This document shows positions 24,541 to 41,933 of a stretch of DNA of 41,933 nucleotides, in pieces (positions within the stretch are counted from its first letter, which is position 1; every line of letters starts with the position of its first letter). This stretch comes from Clostridia bacterium. Its GTDB lineage: Bacteria; Bacillota; Clostridia; UMGS1883. The notes below the pieces were generated by a model. The model searched no databases. It saw only the letters and a program-made list of their open reading frames with translations, and was not told the DNA's origin. A program made the position numbers and the translations under genes. Location of the stretch: positions 1 through 41,933 of the forward strand of contig JAFYPR010000033.1 of the NCBI GenBank assembly GCA_017547445.1, in the 5' to 3' direction.

Positions 24541-26508
<1,968 letters not shown>

Positions 26509-26559
26509 CTTGCTAAAGTAAACTACGAGCCACGTTTGGTGCAGACCACATAGCACTCA

Positions 26560-26735
26560 TCGATATAAATCTCTTACGAGATTTTCGATATGTTCTATTA
26601 GAACTCGATATGCCTATCGGCTCGATATGTTGCCTTACGGCAACGAGATTTATATCATATCGAAAACGAGTACAGCGAGTTTATATCGAATTTTGCGAAG
26701 CAAAATATATCGAACACGCAAAGCGTGTATATCGA
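26560..26735. repeat. Convergent heptamer array: 4x TCGATAT then 4x ATATCGA, interleaved with variable short hairpins
   Basis: TCGATAT starts at 26560, 26585, 26605 and 26622. ATATCGA starts at 26657, 26683, 26707 and 26729. Six of the seven spacers are perfect 4-7-bp hairpins, each with a different stem. Confidence 0.85.
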
Positions 26736-26751
26736 CTAAGGAGACTTTATT

Positions 26752-27102
26752 ATGGAAAACAACAAAAATATATTAAGAGAAGAAACCATAAATTTTGCAA
26801 TAGAAATATCTGATATTTGCGATAATATTAAAGGTTGTTCGGTATACATTAATCAGCTTTTAAGATGTTCTTCGTCTATTGGTGCAAATCTTCATGAGGC
26901 AAAATATGCTCAAAGTAAAGCAGATTTTATCAATAAGTTAGAAATTGCGTTAAAAGAAAGTTATGAAGCAGAGTATTGGTTGGAATTGTTATTTCGTAAA
27001 AAGAAACTTGACGAAATTACATACAAAACTTTAATAAACAAATGCGGAACAATACGAAGAAAGTTAATTGCATCTGTGACCACAGCAAAAAAGAAGCAAT
27101 GA
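26752..27102 (+). CDS. Four-helix-bundle protein (23S rRNA intervening-sequence protein / Avd-like family)
   Basis: 116 aa with 'SSSIGANLHEAKYAQSKADFINKL.IALKE..E..YWLELL', the family hallmark. RBS is AAGGAG. The coding region is AT-rich. Confidence 0.8.
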   Translation: MENNKNILREETINFAIEISDICDNIKGCSVYINQLLRCSSSIGANLHEAKYAQSKADFINKLEIALKESYEAEYWLELLFRKKKLDEITYKTLINKCGTIRRKLIASVTTAKKKQ

Positions 27103-27146
27103 ACTGTTTTGTGTCGTTGTTTTTTTGGTAGAAAGGACAAAAAAGT

Positions 27147-27788
27147 ATGAAGTGTCAATTTTGCAATAAGTATGCTGGATTTATGAAAGGCTTTCATTCG
27201 GAATGTAAATCTAAAGCAGAAAAGTGTATGAAAGCAATTCAACATATTGTCAATGTATATAATCAAGATGGCATAGATTTTGTTGATGCCAGGCAGGCAA
27301 TTATAGATTTAATAGCTTCTAATGAGTTTTATTATAACTATCTTGGAAATTGTGTACACACTAAAAGTGACATAAGAACTAATGAATTCTTGATACATGT
27401 TGAAACATCACTTTCTGTTTATGAATCCAAAAACAGAAAAACGATGGTGAGAACAGGTCTTTCTTATGCTCGTTATCCCAAATGGAGAATATCTTCGTGC
27501 AAAATCGAGGAAATGGCAACCGTGGCACTTACAGATAGAAGTATTTACATTATAGGAATTAACGGTGTTATGATATATCCATACAATAAAATAGTCAACA
27601 TTGGTTATGAAAATGGACACGCATATTTTGATGTCAAAACCTCTTCTTCATATCCTCACAGATTTAAAATAAAATCAACAGAGAACAAAGATTTATTAAA
27701 ACCTCAAAATATTACTTTGTTTTTAAACTTATTATGTGATTGGAACAATTCACAGTGTATCAGACCCCACCCACTTTGTTTGCATTAA
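27147..27788 (+). CDS. Hypothetical protein with an N-terminal CxxC...HxxC zinc-ribbon-like motif
   Basis: A 213-aa ORF in the low-GC island, beginning 'MKCQFCNKYAGFMKGFHSEC'. I do not recognise a family. The C-terminal half looks beta-rich, possibly PH-like. Confidence 0.55.
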   Translation: MKCQFCNKYAGFMKGFHSECKSKAEKCMKAIQHIVNVYNQDGIDFVDARQAIIDLIASNEFYYNYLGNCVHTKSDIRTNEFLIHVETSLSVYESKNRKTMVRTGLSYARYPKWRISSCKIEEMATVALTDRSIYIIGINGVMIYPYNKIVNIGYENGHAYFDVKTSSSYPHRFKIKSTENKDLLKPQNITLFLNLLCDWNNSQCIRPHPLCLH

Positions 27789-27832
27789 ATTTACTTTAGC
27801 GGAACAGGCGTGTCCCCATACCTTATTAAACC

Positions 27833-27875
27833 GTTGCAATTACCTGATCAAACCTACTAAACCCCACTAAAGGAG
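27833..27875 (+). repeat. 43-nt leader module shared with the hisB upstream region (39818-39860)
   Basis: The first 16 nt (gttgcaattacctgat) are identical. The ctaaa, cccac and aaagga blocks are also shared, giving ~35/44 aligned positions. Confidence 0.8.
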
Positions 27876-27887
27876 TGGTTACCACAA

Positions 27888-29615
27888 ATGAAAACAGCAA
27901 TTAAAATTTTAAAGGCGGCAAAGAAGTATCATATTTATCTTTACATCACCGCCATTGCCACAATATTGAATTCGGTTTTGTCCCTCTACACCCCAAGGCT
28001 TATTTCAAGCCTTGTAAATTTAATTGCAGAGGATGCAACCCGTCTTCCCACCGAGGCACCCCGTCTTGCTCTTATTTTTCTTCTGATAGCCTTCGGCATT
28101 TTTGTAACACAGGCAATAAAGGTTTACGTGAGCCATTATGCCGCATGGAGCTTTGTTGAAGAATTGCGCAACAAGCTCTATGACCACATCCAGCGCCTGT
28201 CCCCGGGCTACTTTTCCGATAAGCAGACAGGTCAGCTGATGAGCCGTGTAATAAACGATACACTTACAATGGAGCTTTTCACCGCCCATTGCGCACCCGA
28301 CATTTTAGCACATTCCGTAATGTTTTTCGGTGTTATCATAATGCTTTTATCTATGAATGTGCGCCTTGCCGTCTATGCAATTTTAACACTTCCCGTAGTG
28401 GGCGTTTGTGTATGGTTTTATGCAAAAAAGGTGCGCCCCTTATTCAATAACCGTCACCAGACGGTTGCCGAAATCAACGGCACACTTCAGGACAACTTCT
28501 CAGGCGTAAAGGAAATACAGATTTTCAACTGTCAGGACAGAGAAAGAGACCGTTTTGCCGAAAAAACTCATCAGTACACACACCTTACCATGAAAGCCTT
28601 TGAAAAAAGCAGTATTGTTCACCCCTTCATAGGCTTTCTCAATCAGCTTGGCACCGTGCTTGTAATAGGCATAGGCGGTATTATGGCAGCAAAAGGCGAA
28701 ATTGATGCAGGTGAGGTTGTGGCATTTCTTCTCTACCTCTCCTCGCTTTATGCACCTATAAATTCCCTTGCCCGTACAAATGAGGATTTGCAGGACTCTC
28801 TGGCAGCAGGCGAGCGTATTTTCAATATGCTTGAAGTCAGAAGCGATGTTTCCGACAAGGAAGGCGCAATAACCATAGGCAGAGCAAAGGGCGAAATCGA
28901 ATTTAAAAACGTGTCCTTCTCCTATAACGATTCCACCGAGGTTTTATCGGGCTTCTCACTTAAAATCAATGAAGGCGAAACTATCGCTCTCGTTGGCTCA
29001 ACAGGTGTAGGCAAAACAACCCTTGCTTCCCTTATAACCCGTTTTTACGACCCCACAGCAGGCTCTGTTACCCTTGATGGCGTAGATTTAAGGGATATGA
29101 CACTTCACTCCCTTCACGAAAACATATCAATGGTATTGCAGGATGTTTTCCTCTTCCACGGCACAGTAAGTGAAAATATCCGCTACGGTGCACCTGATGC
29201 AACCGATGAAGAGGTTAAAAACGCTGCCGCTCTTGCCAATGCAGACGGCTTTATAACAGAGCTCGAGCATGGCTATGACACAATCGTAGGCGAAAGAGGT
29301 GTAAGGCTCTCAGGCGGTCAGAAGCAGAGAATAGCCATTGCCCGTGCAATCCTCAGAAACCGTCCCATACTTATTTTAGACGAGGCAACAAGTGCAGTAG
29401 ATAACCGCACCGAGCGTCTTATCCATAAGGCAATAGATACAGTTATCGAAAACCGCACAACAATTATCATTGCCCACCGTCTTTCCACAATAAAAAATGC
29501 CGATAAGATTGTTGTTATCGAAAACGGCACAGTAAAAGAAATGGGCAGCCATGAAGAATTGCTCGAATTAAACGGCGCATATAAGAAGCTATACGAAACA
29601 GGCTTAAATGCATAA
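27888..29615 (+). CDS. ABC exporter, fused permease/ATPase (MsbA/type I exporter-like)
   Basis: N-terminal six-helix TMD. Walker A 'GSTGVGKTT', signature 'LSGGQKQR', Walker B 'ILILDEATS'. Confidence 0.9.
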   Translation: MKTAIKILKAAKKYHIYLYITAIATILNSVLSLYTPRLISSLVNLIAEDATRLPTEAPRLALIFLLIAFGIFVTQAIKVYVSHYAAWSFVEELRNKLYDHIQRLSPGYFSDKQTGQLMSRVINDTLTMELFTAHCAPDILAHSVMFFGVIIMLLSMNVRLAVYAILTLPVVGVCVWFYAKKVRPLFNNRHQTVAEINGTLQDNFSGVKEIQIFNCQDRERDRFAEKTHQYTHLTMKAFEKSSIVHPFIGFLNQLGTVLVIGIGGIMAAKGEIDAGEVVAFLLYLSSLYAPINSLARTNEDLQDSLAAGERIFNMLEVRSDVSDKEGAITIGRAKGEIEFKNVSFSYNDSTEVLSGFSLKINEGETIALVGSTGVGKTTLASLITRFYDPTAGSVTLDGVDLRDMTLHSLHENISMVLQDVFLFHGTVSENIRYGAPDATDEEVKNAAALANADGFITELEHGYDTIVGERGVRLSGGQKQRIAIARAILRNRPILILDEATSAVDNRTERLIHKAIDTVIENRTTIIIAHRLSTIKNADKIVVIENGTVKEMGSHEELLELNGAYKKLYETGLNA

Positions 29616-29647: not shown

Positions 29648-31762
29648 TTATTCTATTACAACTTCAATCTTCTCTTCACTTCTGTTTCCTACAAAGTCTT
29701 CGACGTAAATTGTAACAGGGTATGTACCCTCAATTGTTACGTCAAGCTCACTTACATCAGCCGTTACAAAGTTTCTCAGATCAACTCCCGTAACATCCTC
29801 TGCCTTTTCACAGAAATGGTTAAACCAGTTAACAGTACTTGTGTCAACCTCCTTCTTTAAAGGAGCAAACTCACTCTTTAAAACAAGAGTCGGAGCCGTA
29901 GCACTGTTTTCATCATAAATGTAAACCGAGAATTTTCTCTCAATGGTGTTATCATAAGAGTCTGTCAGCTTTACTGCCAGAGCGTCCGTATATGCCCCCG
30001 TGGCATTAAAGTCAATAAGGGATGCATCAACACTCATTTTTCCCTCTTCAAAGTCGTAAATCTTCGCCTCTTCCTCCTCGCTTTCTTCAAGGGAAGGATT
30101 AGCCTTTACAAGCAGCTTTCCGTTTTCAGTCTTTATATCATATGTACCGTCAACATTGTCGCTTGCGGTGAAATATTCTGCCCAGTCGATACTCTTCTCA
30201 TCTGTTCCCTGAGCAAATACGATGGGCACATTTGCATTTTTAAGTCCCACAGAGGGAGCAACTGCATCAAGAGCCTCCGCCGCTTTAAGGGATTTACCGA
30301 TTGTGTCAATCCTGTCATAAAGTGAAGCCTTCTTCGCCTTGATAGCCGCCGCATACTTGGGTGAGCCTGCCACACCGTAAACACTGTCACCGAATATACC
30401 GCCGTATGAGCCCATAACACCCATGTTTTCAGAAAATTCATTAGCCTTTAATCCGCCAATCATCTCAAAAACCTTAAGATTATCATCACCGATTTCAGGA
30501 TGGAAAATATCTATACCGAACACAATTGCCTCACTGGGAGCCATAGTTTCACGATACTCAGCTATAGTTTCTGTTCTGCCCATATTCTTATAAAGCTCTT
30601 CTGTATAAAGAACATATGCCTGTACCGCAAGACGGCTTTCTTCATAATCAAAGCCACGGAGAAGACCTATAGCATCACAGGCGGGCTTACAGATACGGTA
30701 TTTGCTTGCGCCTTCAACATATTCCTCACCTGTAAAGGGAATATCATCGGGACGGGGCCAGAAAATAATACCCATACTTTCGCCTCTTGCGGCAAGCACA
30801 TTACTTGCACCGCCCATTCTCCATCTTGCCATATGTGTAAATACAGATTCGCCGTTTCTGAAATAGCCGTCAATACCTGTACCGCCGTTCCAGGAACCCT
30901 GACCGAAAACTGCCGCAGAGCAGCTTACAAGACCACGTGTCATCAACGAATCAAGATGCTCTGCCGCCGCAATTGCCTCAGGCGTATCAACATTCAATGC
31001 ATTACCGTCATAAATTGCAGCACCGTTAGAGTGCAGCGCCATCTGTATAGCATAAACGTACTGAGTGTTAAAGGGTACAATTTCGTTACCTGCAACACCT
31101 TTTTTACCCGAATAATATCTTTGGATCTTGGTGAGATAATCTTCAAATACGCTCCATGTCCACTTTCCCTCACGGTACAAATCATAAGGATAAATGGTTC
31201 TGCCGTTTTCATCCTTCAAATCGGGCACTGCCTCAATAAGGTTAATGTTGAAAACCATAGGCCAGTCCGTAACATAAATAAGGTCACGTTCCATAAAGTA
31301 GTGATTACCGAATACGGGAGGCATCACAATCCACTCTGCATCGGGATGCTCAAACACGTCAAGATAAGGGTCTAGAGGCTGCAACACATTCTGTGTAAGA
31401 ACAGTTGCCTGAGCCGAGCCTGACAAAACCGCCATGTGAGCATAGGGGTCACCTGCAAGAACTGTCTGCAGACAGTCACGGGTAGAGCCGTTAACCCATG
31501 CCTTCCACTTTATATCAACACCCAATTCCTCTTTAACCGTATTGAGTGCCTTAACACCCGCCAGCCTCTTGTCGGGTGCTACGGTATATTCACCCGTAAT
31601 GGGGTCTTTGTAATGAGGGTCAATCTCCGGGATATAGTGGTGACCTATGTAGATAGTGTCAGCAACGGCATCGACAGCTTCTTCTGCATGATTTGCGCAG
31701 CCTGATAAAAGAGCAATAACCATTATACTCATTACCGCTGCTGATATAATACGTTTTTTCAT
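29648..31762 (-). CDS. Extracellular solute-binding-protein-like lipoprotein with C-terminal Ig-like domains
   Basis: Lipobox 'ALLSGC' after a signal peptide, then an SBP-like body. The C-terminal ~200 aa include a 'GTYPVTIYVEDFVGN' Ig-like (DUF5011/Big-type) segment. Start is ATG 31762, preceded by AAGGATGGAG. Confidence 0.7.
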   Translation of the reverse strand: MKKRIISAAVMSIMVIALLSGCANHAEEAVDAVADTIYIGHHYIPEIDPHYKDPITGEYTVAPDKRLAGVKALNTVKEELGVDIKWKAWVNGSTRDCLQTVLAGDPYAHMAVLSGSAQATVLTQNVLQPLDPYLDVFEHPDAEWIVMPPVFGNHYFMERDLIYVTDWPMVFNINLIEAVPDLKDENGRTIYPYDLYREGKWTWSVFEDYLTKIQRYYSGKKGVAGNEIVPFNTQYVYAIQMALHSNGAAIYDGNALNVDTPEAIAAAEHLDSLMTRGLVSCSAAVFGQGSWNGGTGIDGYFRNGESVFTHMARWRMGGASNVLAARGESMGIIFWPRPDDIPFTGEEYVEGASKYRICKPACDAIGLLRGFDYEESRLAVQAYVLYTEELYKNMGRTETIAEYRETMAPSEAIVFGIDIFHPEIGDDNLKVFEMIGGLKANEFSENMGVMGSYGGIFGDSVYGVAGSPKYAAAIKAKKASLYDRIDTIGKSLKAAEALDAVAPSVGLKNANVPIVFAQGTDEKSIDWAEYFTASDNVDGTYDIKTENGKLLVKANPSLEESEEEEAKIYDFEEGKMSVDASLIDFNATGAYTDALAVKLTDSYDNTIERKFSVYIYDENSATAPTLVLKSEFAPLKKEVDTSTVNWFNHFCEKAEDVTGVDLRNFVTADVSELDVTIEGTYPVTIYVEDFVGNRSEEKIEVVIE

Positions 31763-31897
31763 TTTCTCCATCCTTTCAGAAATACCACACATTTCTATTT
31801 ATTATATCATACCATTTTTTTATATTTTTGTAAATACAAAATCATTGCGATTTTATATTCAATATATTTCATTTTTGTTAAATTTCACAACAACCTA

Positions 31898-34318: not shown

Positions 34319-36256
34319 TTATCTTGTTCTGTTTGCGATTTCATCCATAAGAGAGATAATGAAGTCATTAACCTTCATACTTCCCTTGTCGCCTTCCTTA
34401 CGGCTTCTCACGGCTACTGCGCCCTCTTCCATTTCCTTATCGCCAACAACAAGCATATACGGCACCTTTTCAAGCTGAGCTTCACGAATCTTGTAACCAA
34501 TCTTTTCGCTTCTGTCATCAACCTCGCTTCTGATACCCATGTTGATAAGGCGGCTGTTCAATTCACGGCAGTATTCCCTGTGACCTTCACCGATGGGTAA
34601 AAGCTTAACCTGTACGGGAGCCATCCATGTGGGGAATGCACCTGCATACTTTTCAATAAGAAGAGCAAGTGTTCTTTCGTAGCAGCCGATGCTTGTACGG
34701 TGGATAATATAAGGATGCTTCTTTGTGCCGTCAGTATCCGTATAAACCATACCGAACTTTTCTGCAAGCATCTGGTCAATCTGGATTGTGATAAGAGTAT
34801 CTTCCTTGCCGTGAACATTCTTAATCTGAATATCAAGCTTAGGACCGTAAAAAGCCGCTTCGCCGATACCTACAGCATAGGGAATTTCAAGATGGTCAAG
34901 GATTTTCTTCATCATGCCCTGAGCTTCATCCCACTGCTCATCAGTACCGATATACTTTTCTCTGTCCTCGGGGTCCCACTGACTGAAGCGGTAAGAAACG
35001 TCCTCATAAAGGCCAAGAGTCTTTAACATGAAAATCGCCAATTCAAGACAGCTCTTGAATTCATCCTCTAACTGCTCGGGTGTACACATAAGGTGACCCT
35101 CAGAAATTGTAAACTGTCTTACTCTGATAAGTCCGTGCATTTCGCCACTTGCTTCGTTACGGAAAAGCGTACTTGTTTCGCCGTAACGGAGGGGCAAATC
35201 ACGGTACGAGCGTGCACGGTTAAGATATGCCTGATACTGGAAGGGGCAAGTCATGGGACGGAGTGCAAACACCTCGTCGTCCTTTTCCTCGTCGCCAAGG
35301 ACGAACATACCGTCCTTATAATGATCCCAGTGACCGGAAATCTTATACAAATCGCTCTTTGCCATAAGAGGAGTCTTCGTTCTCATCCAGCCACGCTTTG
35401 CTTCTTCGTCTTCGACAAATCTCTGAAGTGTCTGCATAATTGCAACACCCTTAGGAAGCATAATGGGAAGACCCTGACCGATATATTCGCTTGTTGTAAA
35501 GAGCTCAAGCTCACGACCCAATTTATTATGGTCTCTCTTTTTAGCTTCTTCAACCTGAGCTAAATACTCTTCCATTTCATCCTTCTTTGTGAAAGCAGTT
35601 GCATAAATACGGGTAAGCATCTTGTTCTTTTCGCTGCCTCTCCAGTAAGCACCTGCAGTGGAAGTAATCTTAAACGCCTTGATAACGCCTGTCTTAGGCA
35701 CATGAGGACCTGCACAAAGGTCAGTAAAATCGCCCTGCTTGTAGAAGGAAATAATGCTGTCCTCGGGCAAATCGTTAATCAATTCAACCTTGTAAGGCTC
35801 ATTTGCTTCTTCCATGAGCTTAACAGCTTCCTCTCTGGGCAGTTCAAAGCGCACGATGGGAAGATTTTCCTTAACAATCTTCTTCATTTCAGCTTCAATC
35901 TTTGCTAAATCCTCGGGAGAAAAGCCCTTGTCCAGATCAAAGTCGTAGTAAAAACCGTTTTCAATAGCGGGGCCTATAGCTAACTTCGCCTCGGGGAAAA
36001 TTCTCTTAACAGCCTGAGCGAGCACATGGCTTGCGCTGTGGCGGAGAGTATTCTTACCCTCGGGAGTGTCAAAACCTTTGAATTCAACGGTTGCATCAGT
36101 GGTAAGGGTTTCAAACAAACCTACCGTTTCTCCGTCTTTGGTTGCACAGAGCACATTCCTTGCTAATCCTTCGGAAATGCTTTTCGCAATGTCCATATAA
36201 GTGATGGGTGCTTCAAATTCACGCACATCATCACGCAATGTAACTTTAATTACCAT
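34319..36256 (-). CDS. thrS: Threonine--tRNA ligase
   Basis: An N-terminal TGS-like domain, a class II core and an anticodon-binding domain. Start is ATG 36256, 9 nt after AAGGAG. The track start at 36265 is a TTG. Confidence 0.95.
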   Translation of the reverse strand: MVIKVTLRDDVREFEAPITYMDIAKSISEGLARNVLCATKDGETVGLFETLTTDATVEFKGFDTPEGKNTLRHSASHVLAQAVKRIFPEAKLAIGPAIENGFYYDFDLDKGFSPEDLAKIEAEMKKIVKENLPIVRFELPREEAVKLMEEANEPYKVELINDLPEDSIISFYKQGDFTDLCAGPHVPKTGVIKAFKITSTAGAYWRGSEKNKMLTRIYATAFTKKDEMEEYLAQVEEAKKRDHNKLGRELELFTTSEYIGQGLPIMLPKGVAIMQTLQRFVEDEEAKRGWMRTKTPLMAKSDLYKISGHWDHYKDGMFVLGDEEKDDEVFALRPMTCPFQYQAYLNRARSYRDLPLRYGETSTLFRNEASGEMHGLIRVRQFTISEGHLMCTPEQLEDEFKSCLELAIFMLKTLGLYEDVSYRFSQWDPEDREKYIGTDEQWDEAQGMMKKILDHLEIPYAVGIGEAAFYGPKLDIQIKNVHGKEDTLITIQIDQMLAEKFGMVYTDTDGTKKHPYIIHRTSIGCYERTLALLIEKYAGAFPTWMAPVQVKLLPIGEGHREYCRELNSRLINMGIRSEVDDRSEKIGYKIREAQLEKVPYMLVVGDKEMEEGAVAVRSRKEGDKGSMKVNDFIISLMDEIANRTR

Positions 36257-36312
36257 ACTGATCAACTCCTTGAAAAAATATTATTTATCCTATTTATTTT
36301 ATCCCTTTACGC

Positions 36313-37278
36313 TTAAATTGTCAACACATATTTTCCGTTAATAAGGACACCCGAAACGCTGTTGTCCTCATAAAGAGAAAACCCTTCAAGATAAGGCATA
36401 TTTTCCTTCTTCTGCCCTGCCACCTTGCTTAAAAACCGTCTGTTATAGCGAATTTCGCCCGACCCTTCCCTTTGGGCATTGCGTCTTATAACCCTTGAAT
36501 ACACCCTTTCTCCCAGAGCCTCGTGGTAAAATCCGCCTGCGGCGTTACAACGAAGCTCCTCCGAATTCTGAAGTCCTATCCGTAAAACCTTCACGTTATT
36601 TTCAAAAAATATACTGTAACAGTCCGCCGCCGTATCAAGCATTTCTTCAAAATCCATGGGCACATACTCCCCTCTTTCATACATATCCGCAAGAAGGGTG
36701 TTTTTTAATATAACAGTGGGATAAATCCTCGTTTCCACGGCGCCCAGTTCTACAAACTGCCTTGCCGTAGCAATGCTCTTTTCGTATGTATCCGAGGGCA
36801 AGCCTATCATCATCTGTAAGCCTAATGCAATTCCTCTTTTTCTTATAGCCTCCGCCGCACGGTATACATCATCCTTCGTGTGCCCTCTCCTTGCCCTTTC
36901 AAGAACCTCTCCGTCAAGGCTCTGCGCCCCTAATTCAATATTTGTAACAGGGTAGGCAGCAAGGATATCCATTATTTCATCATCTATATAGTCAGGTCTT
37001 GTGGAAAGGCGTATTCCTTTAATCCTCTCTCCGTCCACATACTTTTTTGCCGCATCAAGATATCCTTTCATGTTATCTTTACCAATCCCCGTAAAGCTTC
37101 CGCCGAAAAAGGCAATGGTATGTCCGTTTCCCGAAAGGGTTTTAAGGTTTTCTTTTATAAATTCCTCCGCCTCATATTCTGTAGGCGGTACAATTTTACC
37201 CGTGATAGATTTCTGATTACAGAAGGCGCAATCATTTCTGCAGCCTGCATGGGGTATAAAAATCGGTATATTAGCCAT
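36313..37278 (-). CDS. Radical SAM protein (ELP3-like small family)
   Basis: 'PHAGCRNDCAFCNQ' (CxxxCxxC) at the N-terminus. It overlaps the rnc stop by 8 nt. Confidence 0.8.
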   Translation of the reverse strand: MANIPIFIPHAGCRNDCAFCNQKSITGKIVPPTEYEAEEFIKENLKTLSGNGHTIAFFGGSFTGIGKDNMKGYLDAAKKYVDGERIKGIRLSTRPDYIDDEIMDILAAYPVTNIELGAQSLDGEVLERARRGHTKDDVYRAAEAIRKRGIALGLQMMIGLPSDTYEKSIATARQFVELGAVETRIYPTVILKNTLLADMYERGEYVPMDFEEMLDTAADCYSIFFENNVKVLRIGLQNSEELRCNAAGGFYHEALGERVYSRVIRRNAQREGSGEIRYNRRFLSKVAGQKKENMPYLEGFSLYEDNSVSGVLINGKYVLTI

Positions 37279-37951
37279 TGCACTTATCTCCCAAAGCCGC
37301 CTTTGCCGCCATCTGCTGGGCCTCCTGCTTTGTTCTTCCGCTTCCCGTGCCTAAAATTTTGTTATTTAGCGAAACTGCCATAGTGAAAACCTTATTATGT
37401 GCAGGTCCCTCCTCCTTAACAGGCAGATATTCTATCAAAACACTGCCTTCCTTCTGCAATTTTTCCTGAAGCATTGTCTTATAGTCACGGTTCAATCTTC
37501 CCTCTGCGGCATTTTCAATAATATGTCCGTAAGCGTCAAAGATAACCTCTCTCGCCTTATCAATACCGCCGTCAAGGTAAATGGCGGCTAAAATTGCCTC
37601 CACCATGTCCGCAAGGATTGATGCCCTCTCTCTGCCTCCGGTAAGCTCTTCGCCCTTGCCTAAACGGGCATGCTTGCCAACTTCAAGCTTTTCCGCAATC
37701 CTTGAAAGGGTTTCCTCGCACACTATATTCGCCCTCATTCTGCTCATCTTACCCTCAGGAAAGTCGGAATAAGTTTTGTAAATATACATACTTGTAAGCA
37801 TCTGAAGCACCGCATCACCTAAAAACTCCAGCCTTTCATAGCTCTCAACATGCCTTTCATGAGCATATGAGGTATGGGTAAGTGCAGTTATAAGAAGCTC
37901 TTCATTTTTAAAGCTGTATCCCAGACTTTTCTGAAAATCCTTTATATCCAT
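37271..37951 (-). CDS. rnc: Ribonuclease III
   Basis: Signature 'ERLEFLGDAVL' and a C-terminal dsRBD ('GPAHNKVF...GSGRTKQEAQQMAA'). I chose ATG 37951 after GGGAGAG. The longer track ORF covers the gene's own promoter. Confidence 0.9.
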   Translation of the reverse strand: MDIKDFQKSLGYSFKNEELLITALTHTSYAHERHVESYERLEFLGDAVLQMLTSMYIYKTYSDFPEGKMSRMRANIVCEETLSRIAEKLEVGKHARLGKGEELTGGRERASILADMVEAILAAIYLDGGIDKAREVIFDAYGHIIENAAEGRLNRDYKTMLQEKLQKEGSVLIEYLPVKEEGPAHNKVFTMAVSLNNKILGTGSGRTKQEAQQMAAKAALGDKCNG

Positions 37952-37982: not shown

Positions 37983-38011
37983 ATTGTATACCAAATATTA
38001 TAAAAGGTCAA
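37983..38011 (-). promoter_or_regulatory. Sigma-70-type promoter of rnc
   Basis: Minus strand: TTGACC (38011-38006), 17-nt spacer, TACAAT (37988-37983). Confidence 0.65.
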
Positions 38012-38075
38012 TATCTTTCACAACCGACAAAAACCCCTGTTTTACTACATTTTCCGCAGTTTCCCGGCTGTGTGT

Positions 38076-38272
38076 AATTATGTAAACCTCAAAAAAGTTT
38101 TCCACAATTTCCCCAAAGTGCAAAATAGTAGTTTTCCACAGGTTGCGAATGCTGATTTTGCGGTTTTAAACTGAGTTTTCCACAGCTTCCACATTAAATC
38201 AGTCTTTTTTTTGTGGAAGTTCGACCTTTTTCCAACATAGCCAATCTCCCATGAAATCAGGTTTACATAATT
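38076..38272. promoter_or_regulatory. DnaA-box-like cluster bounded by a perfect 14-bp inverted repeat
   Basis: The inverted repeat is aattatgtaaacct (38076-38089) / aggtttacataatt (38259-38272). TTTTCCACA, which fits TTWTNCACA exactly, occurs at 38098, 38132 and 38176, each time as AGTTTTCCACA. Weaker boxes lie at 38185-38193 and 38212-38220 (reverse). Confidence 0.6.
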
Positions 38273-38332
38273 CTTGTTTTCGTCCTTTTCCGCGCAGAAT
38301 CCGACAAAATTTTTTTCTTATTAAAATAATCA

Positions 38333-38361
38333 TTGCAAAAACGCCCCGGGAGGCTTATAAT
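38333..38361 (+). promoter_or_regulatory. Sigma-70-type promoter of hisD
   Basis: TTGCAA (38333-38338), 17-nt spacer, TATAAT (38356-38361), with an AT-rich tract upstream. Confidence 0.7.
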
Positions 38362-38395: not shown

Positions 38396-39688
38396 ATGAA
38401 TATATATACACTCTCTGAGATGACACAGGAAGAAAAAACAAAAATTATGAAGCGTGCGGAATTTGATATTACAGAGCAGATGAAGCTTGCAAAGGAAGTT
38501 TCAGATGACGTGCGTGACAACGGCGATAAGGCAGTATTGAAGTATACGGAAAAGTTTGACCGTGTTACCCTCACTCAGGATAAAATAAAGGTAACAGAAG
38601 AAGAAATTGAAACTGCATATAACCGCCTTGATAAGGAAACACGGGAAGCTATTGAATATGCATATAAGAATATTTACGATTTCCACGAAAAGCAGCTCCC
38701 CGAGGAAATGTGGTTTACAAACGTTGACAAGGGTCTTATGGTAGGTGAAAAGACAACTCCCATCGTTGACGTATGTCTCTACGTTCCCGGCGGCAAGGGC
38801 AGCTTCCCCTCCGTCTTACTTATGCTTGGTGTTCCCGCCACTGTTGCAGGTGTTAGTAAAATTGTTGTTGTAACTCCTCCCAATCAGAAAGGCGAGGTTG
38901 ATGATGCAATTTTAACTGCCGCAAAGATTATCGGCATTAAGGATATTTACAAGGTAGGCGGCATTCAGGCGGTAGCAGCGGTAGCCTACGGCACGGAAAC
39001 TATCCCCAAATGCCATAAAATCATCGGCCCCGGCAACAGCTATGCAACAGCCGCGAAGAGGGTTCTTGCCCAGCAGATTGATGCAGGTCTCCCTGCAGGC
39101 CCCAGCGAGGTTATAATCCTTGCTGACGAAAAGGCAGACCCTGAGAAGGTTGCGCTTGACTGGATGATTGAAGCTGAGCACGGTCCCGACTCCTCCGCTC
39201 TTTTAGTAACACATTCAAGAGAGCTCGTTGAAAAGGTTCTACCCATTATCGAAAGACAGAAGGGAAAGATTTCCGAAAGAAGAAGAAGCTTTATCGAAGC
39301 TGTTGAAAATAATTACGGCGGTGTTATCCTTACTGATTCACTTGCCGAAAGCGTACAGTTTGTAAATGACTATGCTCCCGAGCATATGGAGGTTATGTGT
39401 GATAAGCCCTTCGATGTTCTTCCCGACATTAAAAACGCAGGTGAAATTCTTTTAGGCGAATATACACCCGTAACACTTTGCAACTTCCTTTTAGGTCCCA
39501 ATGCAATTCTTCCCACAGGCGGTTTTGCAAAGACATATTCTTCCGTATCCGTGTTTGACTTCTTAAAGCGCTCTTCTATAGGCTATGCATCACGTGAAGG
39601 CTTTGAAAGAGTCCGTGATTATGCATATAAAATGGCAACAGTCGAAGGCTTTGACACACACGGCTTGGCAGTAAAAGAACGTAAATAA
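38396..39688 (+). CDS. hisD: Histidinol dehydrogenase
   Basis: 'KIIGPGNSYATAAKR', 'EAEHGPDS' and a C-terminus typical of HisD. Start is ATG 38396, 9 nt after GGAAGG. Confidence 0.9.
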   Translation: MNIYTLSEMTQEEKTKIMKRAEFDITEQMKLAKEVSDDVRDNGDKAVLKYTEKFDRVTLTQDKIKVTEEEIETAYNRLDKETREAIEYAYKNIYDFHEKQLPEEMWFTNVDKGLMVGEKTTPIVDVCLYVPGGKGSFPSVLLMLGVPATVAGVSKIVVVTPPNQKGEVDDAILTAAKIIGIKDIYKVGGIQAVAAVAYGTETIPKCHKIIGPGNSYATAAKRVLAQQIDAGLPAGPSEVIILADEKADPEKVALDWMIEAEHGPDSSALLVTHSRELVEKVLPIIERQKGKISERRRSFIEAVENNYGGVILTDSLAESVQFVNDYAPEHMEVMCDKPFDVLPDIKNAGEILLGEYTPVTLCNFLLGPNAILPTGGFAKTYSSVSVFDFLKRSSIGYASREGFERVRDYAYKMATVEGFDTHGLAVKERK

Positions 39689-39817
39689 ATACTTCCACAC
39701 ACCTACTGCAACCCACAACACGGGACACTCCCTACCCATAGCCAACCCACAATTTCGTTTTTTCTGCACACTAAATGGAAAATGAATGAATGGGAGTGTC
39801 GCTGTTCCTTTAAAAAT

Positions 39818-39860
39818 GTTGCAATTACCTGATTAAAGTATGCTAAAACCCACAAAGGAT
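39818..39860 (+). repeat. Second copy of the 43-nt leader module (see 27833-27875)
   Basis: gttgcaattacctgattaaagtatgctaaaacccacaaaggat. It includes the hisB RBS. Confidence 0.8.
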
Positions 39861-39868
39861 TGATTAAA

Positions 39869-40483
39869 ATGATTAAAGTTACACGTAAAACAAGTGAAAG
39901 TACAATGCAGGTAATTCTTTCTGACGGTCCCGTTAAAAAGGATTACAGAAGCCGCATAAAAACTCCTCTTCCCTTTTTAAACCACATGATTGAGCAGACA
40001 GTATGGAGAAGTGGCTTCAATATCGAAGCTGAAGTAAGCCTTACAGATTTTTGTCTTGCTCACCTTGTAACAGAGGACTTGGGGCAGGCAGTAGGTAAAG
40101 CCTTTGCAAAAAGGCTTGAAAATACAGACGGCTCCGTAGGCTTTGGCGACGGCTTTGGTATGATTGACGAGGCTCTTGCCCACACAACAATAAGCTTTGA
40201 GCAAAGAGCATTTTTCGGTTTTTATCCTTCTGTGGCTATTCCCGAAAATGTTGAGGGCATGGCTTCCGAGGAGCTTCTTGTTTTCCTTGACGCATTCTGT
40301 CAGGGTGCAAACTGCACCATGCAGATTGACCTTACAAGAGGTGAAAACACCCACCACATCTGGGAGGCAATTTTCCGTTCCTTCGGTATTGCCCTTAAAA
40401 ATGCTTTTACCGTTGACGAAAGCCGTAAGGGTATGACAAGCGGTGTTGCAGGCAAGGTAGTATTTGAGGTTGAGGAAATCTGA
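39869..40483 (+). CDS. hisB: Imidazoleglycerol-phosphate dehydratase-like protein (divergent)
   Basis: IGPD landmarks are present: 'RKTSES', 'FLNHMI', 'MIDEAL', 'GENTHHIWEA'. The D.HH..ED motif reads 'LAHLVTED'. Start is ATG 39869, 9 nt after AAAGGA. Confidence 0.7.
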   Translation: MIKVTRKTSESTMQVILSDGPVKKDYRSRIKTPLPFLNHMIEQTVWRSGFNIEAEVSLTDFCLAHLVTEDLGQAVGKAFAKRLENTDGSVGFGDGFGMIDEALAHTTISFEQRAFFGFYPSVAIPENVEGMASEELLVFLDAFCQGANCTMQIDLTRGENTHHIWEAIFRSFGIALKNAFTVDESRKGMTSGVAGKVVFEVEEI

Positions 40484-41526
40484 TGGCTAAAGTTGCACCA
40501 TTTTTAGATAAATATGAATACATAATTTTTGACATGGACGGTGTTATCACCAGCGAGCAGAATTACTGGGACATTGCCGCGCTGACCGTTTATGAGCTTT
40601 TAAACGGAGCTCATTATTACGGAAATGAAAAGTTCGATCCCCTTTGGGCCTTAGACCATGTAAAGGAAATAAGGGACGAGGTCTTTGTTTCAGACAAGAC
40701 AATTGCCCTTGTGAAGGACCGCGGTGTAAATTCCAACTGGGATTTGGGATATGTGGTTTTTGCCTATATCCTCTCAGGCAAATGTAAGGATTACAAGGCA
40801 GTTTATGATTATATAAACGAAAGCAGTCTTATGGCATTTGACCTTTATGACGAATGTGCCCGTCTTTTGTCAGAAAAGCTCGGCGTCCCCATTGATATGT
40901 GCAAAAGAAATGAGCCTGTATGGAATATGTGCCGTGACACCTTTCAGGAATGGTATTTCGGAAGTGACGAATTTGAGGTTTTCTATAACACAAAACCCCG
41001 ATGCCCCCATAAGCCTTCCATGGAAATGCGGGAAGTACCCGCAATAGAGCTTGATGATGTTTTAAAAGTTCTCTCCACTCTTAAGGGAAACGGCAAAAAG
41101 CTTATGATTGCCACAGGCAGAAGTGACCGTGACGTTTCAAACCCCATGAGGCTTTGGGATATACGAAAATATTTTGAACCCGATGCAATCGCAACCTATA
41201 CCCATATTATGAACGCAGAGGAAAGCTTCAAAAAAACAGGCAAAAAGGTTATTCTTACAAAGCCGGAGCCTTACATTTTCCTTAAAGCGCTCTACCGCAC
41301 AGATTATCCGGATGAAAAAATCCTCTCGGGGGATTTTGACAAATCATATCTCTCCAAAGCTTTGGTTGTAGGTGATGCAGGCAGTGACCTTTTTGCCGCA
41401 AAGCGTATGGGAAGCGACTTTCTTGCAGTTCTGACAGGCTCAGGCGGTGAAAAGACACGCCCCTTCTTTGAAAAGGAAAAGGCAGAGTACATTCTTCCCT
41501 CAATTAAGGGAATGATTACTCCTTGA
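40483..41526 (+). CDS. HAD-superfamily hydrolase with a large cap insertion
   Basis: HAD motifs '[10 protein letters not shown]' (I), 'ATGRS' (II), 'TKPEP' (III) and '[12 protein letters not shown]' (IV). It has a TGATG overlap with hisB. Confidence 0.8.
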
Positions 41527-41551
41527 CAATTTTGGTTATAATGAATATAAT
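41523..41551 (+). promoter_or_regulatory. Sigma-70-type promoter of the DUF1858 gene
   Basis: TTGACA (41523-41528), 17-nt spacer, TATAAT (41546-41551). Confidence 0.6.
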
Positions 41552-41584
41552 TGTGTAAAGAAATTTTTATACGGAGGTAATATT

Positions 41585-41788
41585 ATGGCACAGGTAACTA
41601 AGGATACAATTATTATGGACGTTTTGAGAATTGATCCCGAAACAGCTCCTATCTTTTTTGAAATCGGTATGCACTGCTTAGGCTGCCCCTCTGCATCAGG
41701 CGAAAGCTTGGAGCAGGCGGCACTTGTTCACGGTGTTGACCCCGATGAGCTTGTTCAGAAAATTAACGACTTTTTGGAAAGCAAGTAA
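41585..41788 (+). CDS. DUF1858 / hybrid-cluster-protein-associated redox disulfide domain protein
   Basis: 67 aa with '[23 protein letters not shown]', typical of the family. RBS is GGAGGT. Confidence 0.8.
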
Positions 41789-41789
41789 T

Positions 41790-41824
41790 AAGAAAGCTCT
41801 ATGCATTATGCATAGAGCTTTCTT
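41790..41824 (+). terminator. Hairpin terminator after the DUF1858 gene
   Basis: 16-bp palindrome aagaaagctctatgca-tta-tgcatagagctttctt. The trailing T-run is weak. Confidence 0.6.
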
Positions 41825-41826
41825 GA

Positions 41827-41895
41827 GCGTGTCGATAAAGTGTTATCGACACGCGACCTCAAAGGCGGGCTAACGCCCTTCGGCACTTTGAGGTC
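41827..41895. repeat. Two further strong hairpins at the window edge
   Basis: gcgtgtcgata-aagtgt-tatcgacacgc (11 bp) and gacctcaaag-21 nt-ctttgaggtc (10 bp). The first contains TCGATA/TATCGA and GCGTGT, as in the 26.6-kb array. Confidence 0.7.
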
Positions 41896-41933
41896 TAAAT
41901 TTTATAAGGAATAAAGTGACGATTTCTCGTGCA

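What the first reader, a model, noticed from the sequence alone, without database searches (positions are those of the whole stretch)
38076..38272. Inverted-repeat-bounded 197-bp module carrying a cluster of DnaA-box-like sites between the divergent rnc and hisD promoters
Three identical 11-mers AGTTTTCCACA occur at 38097-38106, 38131-38140 and 38175-38184, all in the same orientation, with 34- and 44-bp spacing. TTTTCCACA matches the relaxed DnaA-box consensus TTWTNCACA at every position. By calculation the per-position chance is 1/32768 per strand, so about 2-3 matches are expected in the whole window on both strands. Three within 87 bp is therefore strongly non-random. Weaker boxes abut them: gcTTCCACA at 38185-38193 and TGTGGAAgt at 38212-38220. 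These two form an 8-bp inverted repeat (38186-38193 / 38212-38219). There is also a one-mismatch box at 38050-38058. The second perfect box lies in the loop of gcaaaat/attttgc (38120-38126 / 38155-38161). The set is bracketed by a perfect 14-bp inverted repeat, aattatgtaaacct / aggtttacataatt (38076-38089 / 38259-38272), which suggests a discrete and possibly mobile module. No dnaA or dnaN gene is nearby. Genes are uniformly minus-strand to the left (33.1-38.0 kb) and plus-strand to the right (38.4-41.8 kb). Candidate roles are a DnaA-titrating or regulatory box cluster (known in Bacillus subtilis away from oriC), DnaA control of his or rnc expression, or an unconventional or secondary replication-origin element.
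Basis: partly seen in the sequence, partly recalled or inferred. Interest (0 to 1): 0.65.

Follow-up and report, generated by a model that had tools for sequence, protein, structure and literature searches.

The report
Conserved non-origin DnaA-box cluster with arms
The stretch between rnc and hisD is a conserved regulatory DNA element made of binding-site-like boxes for the replication initiator DnaA, bracketed by two inverted copies of a motif identical to one half of the chromosome-resolution site dif; it is not a replication origin and not mobile, and its bracketed architecture has not been described before.

Summary
Three identical AGTTTTCCACA 11-mers, four to five weaker DnaA-type boxes and a perfect 14-bp inverted repeat lie at 38076-38272, between the predicted divergent rnc and hisD promoters.

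The module is single-copy and syntenic. It is strongly footprinted in at least 12 related uncultured Clostridia species, where boxes and arms are invariant but spacers vary. A sister family carries the same arms around TTATCAACA-type boxes. Both families share the small DUF1858 gene as neighbour.

- **Not an origin:** coding-strand and third-position GC skew keep the same polarity on both sides. There is no DnaA-trio and no dnaA or dnaN nearby.
- **Not mobile:** one copy per locus, and no plasmid or phage match.
- **Not an invertible switch:** none of at least 25 assemblies shows it inverted.
- **Not a structured RNA:** no covariation and no Rfam hit.

Best reading: a non-origin DnaA-box cluster that controls the flanking promoters and/or titrates DnaA.

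The arms (ATTATGTAAAC) match the XerD side of Firmicute dif at 11 of 11 positions. They are held at a rigid 182-184 bp spacing. Their binding partner is unknown, and this is the new part.

The parts
38076..38089 (.). Arm A (rnc-proximal), AATTATGTAAACCT. The core ATTATGTAAAC is invariant.
   Evidence: Perfect 14-bp inverted repeat with arm B. The 11-mer is invariant in the 7 sequences aligned and exact in both arms of all 7 family-2 loci measured; L130, L132 and L151 carry one-base variants, so the 10-mer TTATGTAAAC is the invariant part. It matches the XerD side of B. subtilis, S. aureus and Desulfotomaculum dif at 11 of 11 positions.
38259..38272 (.). Arm B (hisD-proximal), AGGTTTACATAATT.
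   Evidence: Start-to-start arm spacing is 182-184 bp in 11 of 11 family-1 loci measured and 195-197 bp in 7 of 7 family-2 loci.
38098..38106 (+). DnaA-type box 1, TTTTCCACA (perfect TTWTNCACA).
   Evidence: Conserved in 5 of 7 close relatives.
38117..38125 (-). Weak inverted box, TTTTGCACT on the minus strand (1 mismatch). It reads TTCCACA in L005-L007.
38132..38140 (+). DnaA-type box 2, TTTTCCACA. GTGGAAA is invariant in the seven aligned close relatives (A3); in A4, L132 reads GTTGAAAAC at this box.
38155..38167 (.). Conserved element ATTTTGCGGTTTT (reverse complement AAAACCGCAAAAT). In L121, L130 and L133 it is the tail of a third tandem box, TGTGGAATACCGC.
   Evidence: Near-invariant in 12 sequences.
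38176..38184 (+). DnaA-type box 3, TTTTCCACA. Identical in eleven of the twelve sequences in A4; L132 reads TGTTGAAAA.
38185..38193 (+). Abutting box 4, GCTTCCACA. The TTCCACA core is invariant.
38212..38220 (-). Inverted box 5, ACTTCCACA on the minus strand (the plus strand reads TGTGGAAGT).
   Evidence: TTTCCAC is conserved.
38229..38237 (+). Degenerate box 6, TTTTCCAAC. It reads TTTTCCAAA in L004, L005 and L006 and TTTCCCACA in L003.
38050..38058 (+). One-mismatch box TTTTCCGCA, outside arm A and between the module and the rnc promoter.
   Evidence: Partly conserved as GCG.AAA.
37983..38011 (-). Predicted rnc-operon sigma-A promoter, TTGACC-17-TACAAT. Its -35 lies 64-66 bp outside arm A.
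   Evidence: TTGAC and TATA..AT are invariant in 12 relatives.
38333..38361 (+). Predicted promoter of the hisD-hisB-HAD-DUF1858 operon, TTGCAA-17-TATAAT. Its -35 lies about 60 bp outside arm B.
   Evidence: In family 2 the equivalent promoter (TTGAAA-17-TATAAT) lies 55-59 bp from the arm and drives DUF1858 in the five loci where the neighbour was checked or visible (L088, L096, L137, L138, L141) and a fumarase gene in L094.
37271..37951 (-). rnc (RNase III, 226 aa), first gene of the rnc, radical-SAM, thrS, sleB-like, DUF1292 run.
38396..39688 (+). hisD (430 aa from the second ATG).
41585..41788 (+). DUF1858 / TIGR03980 redox-disulfide protein. It is the module's conserved deep-synteny partner.
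   Evidence: It lies directly next to the module in L006 and in family-2 loci L137, L138-L140, L141 and L088.

Best explanation
The 197-bp module is a chromosomal, non-origin DnaA-box cluster of the B. subtilis 'DBC' kind, sitting between two divergent sigma-A promoters.

**Shown**
- The boxes comprise a tandem pair or triple plus dispersed boxes in both orientations. Together with both arms they are under strong purifying selection in an uncultured, spore-forming Clostridia lineage.
- The module is single-copy and syntenic.
- It is not at a switch of replication polarity.

**Inferred**
- DnaA, probably as a cooperative ATP-DnaA oligomer, occupies the boxes.
- From about -70 to -250 it modulates the rnc operon promoter and the opposite promoter. 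That promoter drives hisD-hisB-HAD-DUF1858 here and DUF1858 alone in other genomes.
- It may also act as a local sink for DnaA, coupling these genes or initiation frequency to DnaA availability.
- The two inverted ATTATGTAAAC arms are read as binding sites for a second, highly conserved DNA-binding protein. The best sequence match is the XerD half-site of dif.
- The arms are held at 182-184 bp from each other, and in most members about 55-66 bp from each -35 (outliers 31-116 bp). Two arm-bound protomers probably bracket or loop the DnaA-bound segment.
For: **Box cluster**
- Three perfect TTTTCCACA boxes plus 4-5 weaker ones lie within 170 bp.
- The cluster meets the published criterion of at least 3 boxes with mean spacing under 100 bp (PMC7561715).

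**Phylogenetic footprint**
- Boxes, arms and the rnc promoter are invariant while spacers diverge. This holds across relatives with 65-82% RNase III identity.

**Same protein for both box flavours**
- Box flavour drifts from TGTGGAAAA to TGTTGAAAA in L132 and in family 2, with both types mixed in one module.
- TTATCNACA is the DnaA-box consensus of the studied oriC of Thermoanaerobacter tengcongensis, a member of the Clostridia; binding itself was assayed there with TTATCCACA-type boxes (PMC1888806).

**Precedent**
- B. subtilis has six non-oriC clusters in intergenic regions. They regulate neighbouring genes and restrain initiation (PMC3245932; PMC4447404).

**Geometry**
- Arm spacing is 182-184 bp in family 1 and 195-197 bp in family 2. 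The -35 elements lie 55-66 bp outside the arms in most members.

**Arms**
- They match the XerD side of dif at 11 of 11 positions.
- L128 and L131 keep the boxes without the arms, so the boxes are the older core.
Against: - No binding or expression data exist. No RNA runs are available and the DNA runs are held only as contigs.
- The DnaA gene and the oriC of this lineage could not be retrieved. It is therefore not shown that its own oriC uses TTTTCCACA.
- The concerted C-to-A change at box position 6 in L132 and family 2 could instead indicate a lineage-specific regulator rather than DnaA.
- Boxes with up to one mismatch are not denser here than elsewhere in the window.
- The nearest strong box is about 85 bp from the rnc -35, so direct promoter control is only plausible.
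- The arm-binding protein is unknown. XerD, BirA and other half-site readings are all resemblances only.
Confidence: 0.55

Rival explanations
1. The boxes are an operator array for a regulator other than DnaA, for example a lineage-specific HTH protein that recognises TGT(G/T)GAAAA. The arms are a second operator. Together they control DUF1858, his and rnc.
For: - All boxes shift together to TGTTGAAAA / TTATCAACA in L132 and in family 2. A co-evolving regulator would produce this.
- The module is tied to particular neighbouring genes: rnc, and the DUF1858 operon promoter at a fixed distance.
Against: - TTTTCCACA and TTATCNACA are both documented DnaA-box forms, and both occur within one module.
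- No regulator gene travels with the module.
- Other known Firmicute motifs I compared from memory (Spo0A, CcpA, CodY, Rex, PhoP, WalR) do not fit.
Confidence: 0.2
2. The element is mainly a XerD-bound chromosome-organisation site, like the XDS sites where XerD unloads SMC. The DnaA-type boxes are secondary.
For: - The arms match the XerD half of dif at 11 of 11 positions. They are invariant across two gene families. Only a very conserved protein would give this.
- XerD is reported to act at dif-like XDS sites apart from its role in dimer resolution at dif.
Against: - Two relatives (L128, L131) keep the boxes and the promoters but have lost the arms.
- There is no XerC arm or 6-bp central region next to either arm.
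- XDS sites are described in the terminus region. No skew switch lies within 38 kb on one side or 14 kb on the other.
- The arm also matches a BirA half-site at 8 of 9 positions, so the match to XerD is not unique.
Confidence: 0.1
3. It is a chromosomal or secondary replication origin.
For: - A DnaA-box cluster is present.
- Genes immediately flanking it diverge: minus strand to the left, and about 14 kb of mostly plus strand to the right.
- A 93% AT 27-mer lies at 38308-38334.
Against: - Coding-strand skew and GC3 skew have the same polarity on both sides. On the rnc side, minus-strand genes score +0.10 / -0.07 and plus-strand genes +0.05 / -0.27. On the hisD side, minus-strand genes score +0.17 / +0.16 and plus-strand genes +0.006 / -0.22.
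- No DnaA-trio is conserved.
- No dnaA, dnaN or rpmH is nearby.
- In family 2 the left-flank genes point towards the module.
Confidence: 0.03
4. It is an invertible promoter switch, flipped by a tyrosine recombinase acting on the inverted repeats.
For: A perfect inverted repeat flanks about 170 bp between two genes, and the repeat looks like a tyrosine-recombinase half-site.
Against: - Every one of at least 25 assemblies from different samples and species has the same orientation relative to the flanking genes.
- Each arm is only a half-site.
- The predicted promoters lie outside the arms.
- No recombinase gene was seen among the flanking genes annotated.
Confidence: 0.04
5. It encodes a structured non-coding RNA or 5' leader, closed by the 14-bp stem formed by the arms.
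For: - The arms could pair.
- In family 2 the right arm is only 27 nt from the start codon of the downstream gene, so that gene's transcript may begin in or before the module.
Against: - RNAalifold predicts only 27 pairs in about 200 nt. All are in invariant columns, and the covariation term is unfavourable.
- The gcaaaat/attttgc hairpin is not conserved.
- There is no Rfam hit at the gathering threshold or at E<=10.
- The conserved elements are direct repeats that cannot pair with each other.
Confidence: 0.05
6. It is a miniature mobile element (MITE-like) bounded by terminal inverted repeats.
For: It is 197 bp long with perfect 14-bp terminal inverted repeats. Similar arms bound a different box cluster at another locus type.
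Against: - There is one copy per locus, always in the same syntenic position.
- It has no match in plasmids or phages.
- There is no target-site duplication.
- The two locus types share DUF1858 as neighbour. This indicates common descent plus rearrangement, not transposition.
Confidence: 0.02

Closest known systems
Bacillus subtilis non-oriC DnaA-box clusters (DBCs: yqeG-sda, ywlC-ywlB, yydA-yycS, ywcI-vpr, gcp-ydiF, thdF-jag)
   Same: - Dense clusters of DnaA boxes lie in intergenic regions away from the unwinding site.
- Some regulate the adjacent gene, and together they restrain initiation.
- The host is a spore-forming Firmicute.
   Different: - No flanking inverted motif or rigid module length is mentioned for the B. 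subtilis clusters in what I read.
- The neighbouring genes differ (rnc and DUF1858/his here).
- Binding and function are untested here.
- The position relative to oriC is unknown.
E. coli datA and DARS1/DARS2
   Same: A DnaA-box cluster works together with a site for a second, architectural DNA-binding protein (IHF, Fis). The complex changes the nucleotide state or availability of DnaA. This comparison rests on my own knowledge and the review titles seen.
   Different: - Firmicutes lack IHF.
- The second motif here is a pair of inverted dif-half-like 11-mers bracketing the boxes, not an internal IHF site.
- There is no sequence relationship.
dif and XerD-only XDS sites
   Same: ATTATGTAAAC equals the XerD-side 11 bases of Firmicute dif. 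XDS sites are described as dif-like sequences at which XerD acts as an SMC unloader.
   Different: - There is no XerC arm and no 6-bp central region.
- Two copies lie in inverted orientation about 170 bp apart.
- The site is not at a skew switch.
- The XDS consensus itself could not be read, because the paper is not held.
Pseudomonas aeruginosa oriCII DnaA boxes upstream of gidA
   Same: A DnaA-box cluster serves as a transcriptional control region for an adjacent operon rather than as the active origin (abstract of PMC13438810, seen).
   Different: - That cluster lies next to the origin region.
- It has no bracketing repeats.
- It is from a different phylum.
BirA operator (TTGTAAACC-N14/15-GGTTTACAA)
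   Same: Each arm matches a half-site at 8 of 9 positions, and the two arms have the same relative polarity as in bioO.
   Different: - The spacer is 169 bp instead of 14-15 bp.
- No biotin genes are adjacent.
- The invariant ATTAT prefix is not part of the BirA signal.

Membership tests
Non-origin DnaA-box cluster (DBC) | At least 3 DnaA boxes with mean spacing under 100 bp | tested here: met
   Three perfect boxes plus 4-5 near boxes in 170 bp. The criterion is quoted.
Non-origin DnaA-box cluster (DBC) | Lies outside the replication origin | tested here: met
   No switch of skew polarity. No DnaA-trio. No dnaA or dnaN in the flanks.
Non-origin DnaA-box cluster (DBC) | DnaA actually binds it, in vivo or in vitro | not testable with these tools
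   Needs EMSA, footprinting, DAP-seq or ChIP.
Non-origin DnaA-box cluster (DBC) | Affects neighbouring gene expression or initiation frequency | not testable with these tools
   No RNA runs are available. Only promoter geometry is known.
Chromosomal origin oriC | Located at the GC-skew / replication-polarity switch | tested here: not met
   Minus-strand genes are the G-rich class on both sides, in 16 assemblies.
Chromosomal origin oriC | DnaA-trio array with a GC cluster next to the boxes | tested here: not met
   The only 3-trio run in the mixed-base part of the module (AAATAGTAG at 38123) is not conserved; the other three regex hits are A-runs (AAGAAAAAA, AAAAAAAAG).
Chromosomal origin oriC | AT-rich unwinding element | tested here: inconclusive
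   A 93% AT 27-mer lies at 38308-38334, but it is outside the arms and directly upstream of the hisD -35.
Chromosomal origin oriC | Next to dnaA, dnaN or rpmH (the usual case in Firmicutes) | tested here: not met
dif / XDS (Xer sites) | XerD-binding arm | tested here: met
   11 of 11 identity to the XerD side of dif in B. subtilis, S. aureus and D. acetoxidans.
dif / XDS (Xer sites) | XerC arm plus 6-bp central region next to the XerD arm | tested here: not met
   The sequence outside both arms is not conserved and does not look like an arm.
dif / XDS (Xer sites) | Terminus location | tested here: not met
   No polarity switch within 38 kb on one side or 14 kb on the other. The distance to the terminus is unknown.
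BirA operator | Two half-sites separated by 14-15 bp, upstream of biotin genes | tested here: not met
   The half-sites match at 8 of 9, but the spacer is 169 bp and no biotin genes are adjacent.
Invertible DNA switch (inverton) | Both orientations occur in populations | tested here: not met
   None of at least 25 assemblies is inverted. Raw reads were not available, so rare flipping is not excluded.
MITE / IS-derived element | Several copies per genome and a target-site duplication | tested here: not met
   One copy per 20-42 kb locus. The flanks gtgtgt / cttgtt are not duplicated.
Structured RNA | Conserved secondary structure with covariation | tested here: not met

The most novel reading that the evidence does not exclude
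The module would be a previously undescribed composite nucleoprotein element. In it, a DnaA-oligomer platform is clamped between two inverted XerD (dif-half) sites at a fixed distance. XerD, or another arm-binding dimer, would play the architectural role that IHF plays at datA and DARS. Alternatively it would mark a local SMC roadblock or unloading point. Either way the element would link control of the replication initiator to the Xer/SMC chromosome-organisation machinery. It is inherited at the DUF1858 locus in at least two families of uncultured spore-forming Clostridia.
Probability: 0.12. Interest if true: 0.8.

Novelty: new variant of a known kind. Interest (0 to 1): 0.45.

Why it matters
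Outside E. coli and B. subtilis very little is known about DnaA-binding loci other than the origin. For the huge uncultured gut Clostridia nothing is known.

- **What this adds.** This is a sequence-defined, strongly conserved candidate. Its architecture is unusually rigid: boxes bracketed by a dif-half motif, at fixed distances to two promoters. That rigidity makes clear, cheap predictions for in-vitro binding tests.
- **If DnaA binds.** rnc (RNase III) and a small redox protein would join the short list of genes coupled to initiator status in spore-formers.
- **If XerD binds the arms.** That would be a new role for Xer half-sites away from the terminus.
- **A practical caution.** A box cluster with divergent flanking genes can mimic an origin, yet strand-resolved skew shows that it is not one.

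Tried and rejected
- **Origin.** Rejected on strand-resolved coding and GC3 skew, on the absence of a DnaA-trio, and on gene content.
- **Mobile element.** Rejected. There is no second copy in any locus and no plasmid or phage match by blastn.
- **Inverton.** Orientation is constant in all assemblies. The read-level test was not possible because runs are held only as Logan contigs.
- **Structured RNA.** No support from Rfam at the gathering or E<=10 thresholds or from RNAalifold. No RNA runs exist.
- **BirA operator.** The half-sites fit but the spacing does not.
- **HcpR.** Considered because DUF1858 is 'hybrid-cluster-protein associated'. The published HcpR signals do not match the arms.
- **Arms as outward -10 elements.** A weak TGGAAA-16-CATAAT match exists, but no conserved -35 accompanies it in either family.
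- **Metagenome scan for arm pairs.** Most of the 38 hits are unrelated. Several (for example L084, L097, L103, L112, L116) look like chance pairs inside ordinary or coding sequence, by eye only. Others are low-GC, phage-like contigs with many copies of the 11-mer. Only the L088 group is a true sister module.
- **L006 membrane protein versus the family-2 ykvI-like protein.** Tested for homology; none found.
- **XDS consensus.** The paper (PMC7897262) is not held, so I could not read it.
- **dnaA/oriC locus of this lineage.** I could not obtain it.
- **Markov-chain simulation.** It timed out and was replaced by permutations.
Full report
**1. The observation**

- AGTTTTCCACA occurs exactly three times in the 41.9-kb window: at 38096-38106, 38130-38140 and 38174-38184, all on the + strand.
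- The repeat finder recovers the perfect 14-bp inverted repeat at 38076-38089 / 38259-38272. It also recovers the TTCCACA/TGTGGAA repeat at 38186-38198 / 38207-38219, and gcaaaat/attttgc.
- TTWTNCACA matches 12 times in the window, against 4.3 +/- 2.3 in shuffles.
- Three perfect boxes within 90 bp arose in 1 of 1000 permutations, and a scan-Poisson estimate is about 1e-3.
- Boxes with up to one mismatch are not denser here than at the densest place elsewhere, 6 against 6. The statistical case therefore rests on the perfect boxes and, above all, on conservation.

**2. Surroundings**

- To the left, on the minus strand, lie rnc, a radical-SAM gene, thrS, a SleB-like hydrolase and DUF1292.
- To the right, on the plus strand, lie hisD, hisB, a HAD hydrolase and a 67-aa DUF1858 / TIGR03980 redox-disulfide protein.
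- The rest of the window is ordinary chromosome: ffh, ylxM, rplM-rpsI, ligA, hydrogenases and glycosidases.
- The window is essentially a metagenome contig. Its relatives are uncultured Clostridia / Oscillospiraceae MAGs from ruminant and other guts.
- The two best sigma-A-type promoters in the intergenic region lie outside the module. TTGACC-17-TACAAT points to rnc (38011-37983). TTGCAA-17-TATAAT points to hisD (38333-38361).

**3. Conservation**

- Upstream of rnc in six species whose RNase III is 72-82% identical, both arms and the main boxes are invariant while the spacers diverge.
- Sampling the whole RNase III clade (65-82% identity) added more loci.
  - L121-L127: one species, seven samples.
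  - L130, L132, L133-L136.
  - L142-L151, of which L146 and L147 are the same records as L003 and L004.
  - All carry the module.
- Start-to-start arm spacing is 182-184 bp in 11 of 11 loci measured, and 182-184 bp in nine further assemblies.
- The rnc promoter is invariant.
- The upstream neighbour varies: hisD, DUF1858 directly (L006, which lacks the his genes), nadC (L133), or an acyltransferase (L130). The downstream gene is always rnc.
- Two peripheral relatives (L128/L129 and L131) keep the box core and the promoter but lack the arms. The boxes are therefore the older part.
- More distant rnc loci (52% identity or less) have nothing comparable.

**4. A sister family**

- A metagenome scan for ATTATGTAAAC-N160-186-GTTTACATAAT found a second bacterial family: L088, L094, L096, L098, L105 and L119, later joined by L137-L141.
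- There the same arms lie 195-197 bp apart. They bracket two triplets of closely spaced TTATCAACA / TTTTCAACA / TTATTAACA boxes, with TTTTCCACA at one position in L088.
- The downstream gene is a 340-aa ykvI-like membrane protein.
- In L088, L137, L138-L140 and L141 the divergent upstream gene is again DUF1858. Its promoter (TTGAAA-17-TATAAT) lies 55-59 bp outside the arm. That is the same geometry as the hisD/DUF1858-operon promoter in most family-1 loci, 55-61 bp in six of them (other family-1 loci 39-116 bp or no clear promoter).
- The two families therefore share the neighbour DUF1858 and look like one ancestral element whose other flank was rearranged.
- L132 in the rnc family also carries TGTTGAAAA boxes.

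**5. Why DnaA**

- TTTTCCACA fits TTWTNCACA perfectly.
- TTATCNACA is the DnaA-box consensus of the experimentally studied oriC of Thermoanaerobacter tengcongensis, a member of the Clostridia.
- Both flavours occur within single modules. Abutting or 9-12-bp-spaced tandem boxes are what cooperative DnaA binding uses.
- B. subtilis offers direct precedent. It has six non-oriC clusters in intergenic regions that regulate neighbours and restrain initiation.
- This remains an inference, because no binding data exist and the lineage's own oriC could not be retrieved.

**6. Not an origin**

Per-gene coding-strand skew and third-position GC skew were computed by strand on each side of the module.
- *Window plus five relatives:* rnc-sense genes score +0.14 / -0.03 on the rnc side and +0.18 / +0.18 on the other side. 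Antisense genes score -0.02 / -0.30 and +0.006 / -0.23.
- *Ten further assemblies reaching 13.5 kb beyond hisD:*

| Side | Strand | Coding skew | GC3 skew |
|---|---|---|---|
| rnc side | minus | +0.10 | -0.07 |
| rnc side | plus | +0.05 | -0.27 |
| hisD side | minus | +0.17 | +0.16 |
| hisD side | plus | +0.006 | -0.22 |

.
- The same strand is G-rich on both sides, so replication passes through without changing direction.
- The cumulative skew in the window merely flattens where the genes turn to the plus strand.
- No conserved DnaA-trio exists, and dnaA and dnaN are absent.
- In family 2 the left-flank genes even point at the module.

**7. Not mobile, not invertible, not a structured RNA**

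- *Mobile element:* one copy per locus, constant synteny, no plasmid or phage match and no target-site duplication.
- *Invertible switch:* every assembly, at least 25 from many samples, has the same orientation. Read-level testing was impossible because runs are kept only as contigs.
- *Structured RNA:* RNAalifold finds only invariant pairs and an unfavourable covariation term. Rfam finds nothing.

**8. The arms**

- ATTATGTAAAC is identical to the XerD-side 11 bases of dif in three organisms.
  - B. subtilis: ACTTCCTAGAATATATATTATGTAAACT.
  - S. aureus.
  - Desulfotomaculum acetoxidans, by prediction.
- It also matches a BirA half-site (TTGTAAACC) at 8 of 9 positions with the right polarity, but the spacer is 169 bp instead of 14-15 bp.
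- Neither arm has a conserved XerC arm or central region beside it.
- The sequence itself is constant, not merely the complementarity between the arms. It is constant across species and across both families. L132 changes the outermost base in both arms.
- This points to recognition by a very conserved protein, not to RNA pairing or recombinational homogenisation.
- The rigid arm-to-arm and arm-to-promoter distances suggest a phased nucleoprotein complex or loop. Which protein binds is unknown. XerD acting at dif-like sites in a role other than dimer resolution has precedent in the XDS sites, but those lie in the terminus region.

**9. Verdict**

- It is a real, conserved cis-element.
- The best reading is a non-origin DnaA-box cluster in a divergent promoter region, confidence about 0.55.
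- It has a new bracketed architecture whose second protein partner is undetermined.
- The origin and mobile-module readings are rejected.
- Interest is moderate: the kind is known, the variant is new, and the hosts are uncultured.

Noticed in passing
L102 (13.5 kb), L117, L115, L109, L111, L113, L089, L083: Low-GC contigs (L102, L117 and L115 at 28-31% GC) carry 7 to more than 29 copies of ATTATGTAAAC in both orientations. In L102, L115 and L117 these are packed into intergenic regions between runs of small ORFs, and GC-rich hairpins accompany the motif in several of the listed contigs (L085, L089, L092 and others). L102 encodes NT5C, a glucosaminidase and a T5orf172 protein, so it looks like a phage. 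The motif may be a phage promoter or operator. L092 and L089 also carry parS-like TGTTTCACGTGAAAC.
   Followed up: partly
window 38024-38032 and 38301-38309: CCGACAAAA occurs as a direct repeat just outside each arm. On the minus strand it reads TTTTGTCGG, one base from a Spo0A box (TGTCGAA). L006 has a perfect TGTCGAA on the rnc side. Both copies are conserved in the two closest relatives, L003 and L004; the rnc-side copy is also recognisable in L006 and L007.
   Followed up: partly
window 38396-41933 and L142-L151 6.8-20 kb: By skew, the roughly 14-kb plus-strand run hisD-hisB-HAD-DUF1858 ... yabP-yqfD-phoH-pgpH-ybeY-dgkA-era-zur-znuABC is transcribed head-on to replication. This holds in all relatives and is unusual for a Firmicute block that includes era and ybeY.
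   Followed up: partly
window 34319-36313: thrS follows the radical-SAM gene after only about 48 nt. There is no T-box leader, and the whole window has no Rfam hit at all. thrS is apparently co-transcribed with rnc.
   Followed up: no
window 29648-31792 (minus strand): A 714-aa ORF has no Pfam or NCBIfam match. It is conserved next to hpf/rnmV in relatives.
   Followed up: no
window 26000-28000: GC drops to 0.36 around a gene for a 23S-rRNA-intervening-sequence protein (26752-27102) and a 213-aa ORF. This may be a small island.
   Followed up: no
window 41585-41788; P0229: The 67-aa DUF1858 protein is extremely conserved. The identical sequence is on record in 104 blocks of the assembly collection (47 contigs in the protein-search table), and homologues from related MAGs, at least one with RNase III only 73% identical, are 85-99% identical.
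   Followed up: partly
L138-L140, 11.5-21 kb: Downstream of the family-2 ykvI-like gene lies an integrase, an HTH gene, HIRAN, a UvrD helicase and an RHS-repeat gene. This looks like an integrated element.
   Followed up: no
L034 8450-8500: A single ATTATGTAAACC lies about 35 nt upstream of a fabF-like gene, just after a terminator hairpin, in a distant relative. The other exact hits, in L034 and L013, are inside the radical-SAM coding sequence.
   Followed up: partly
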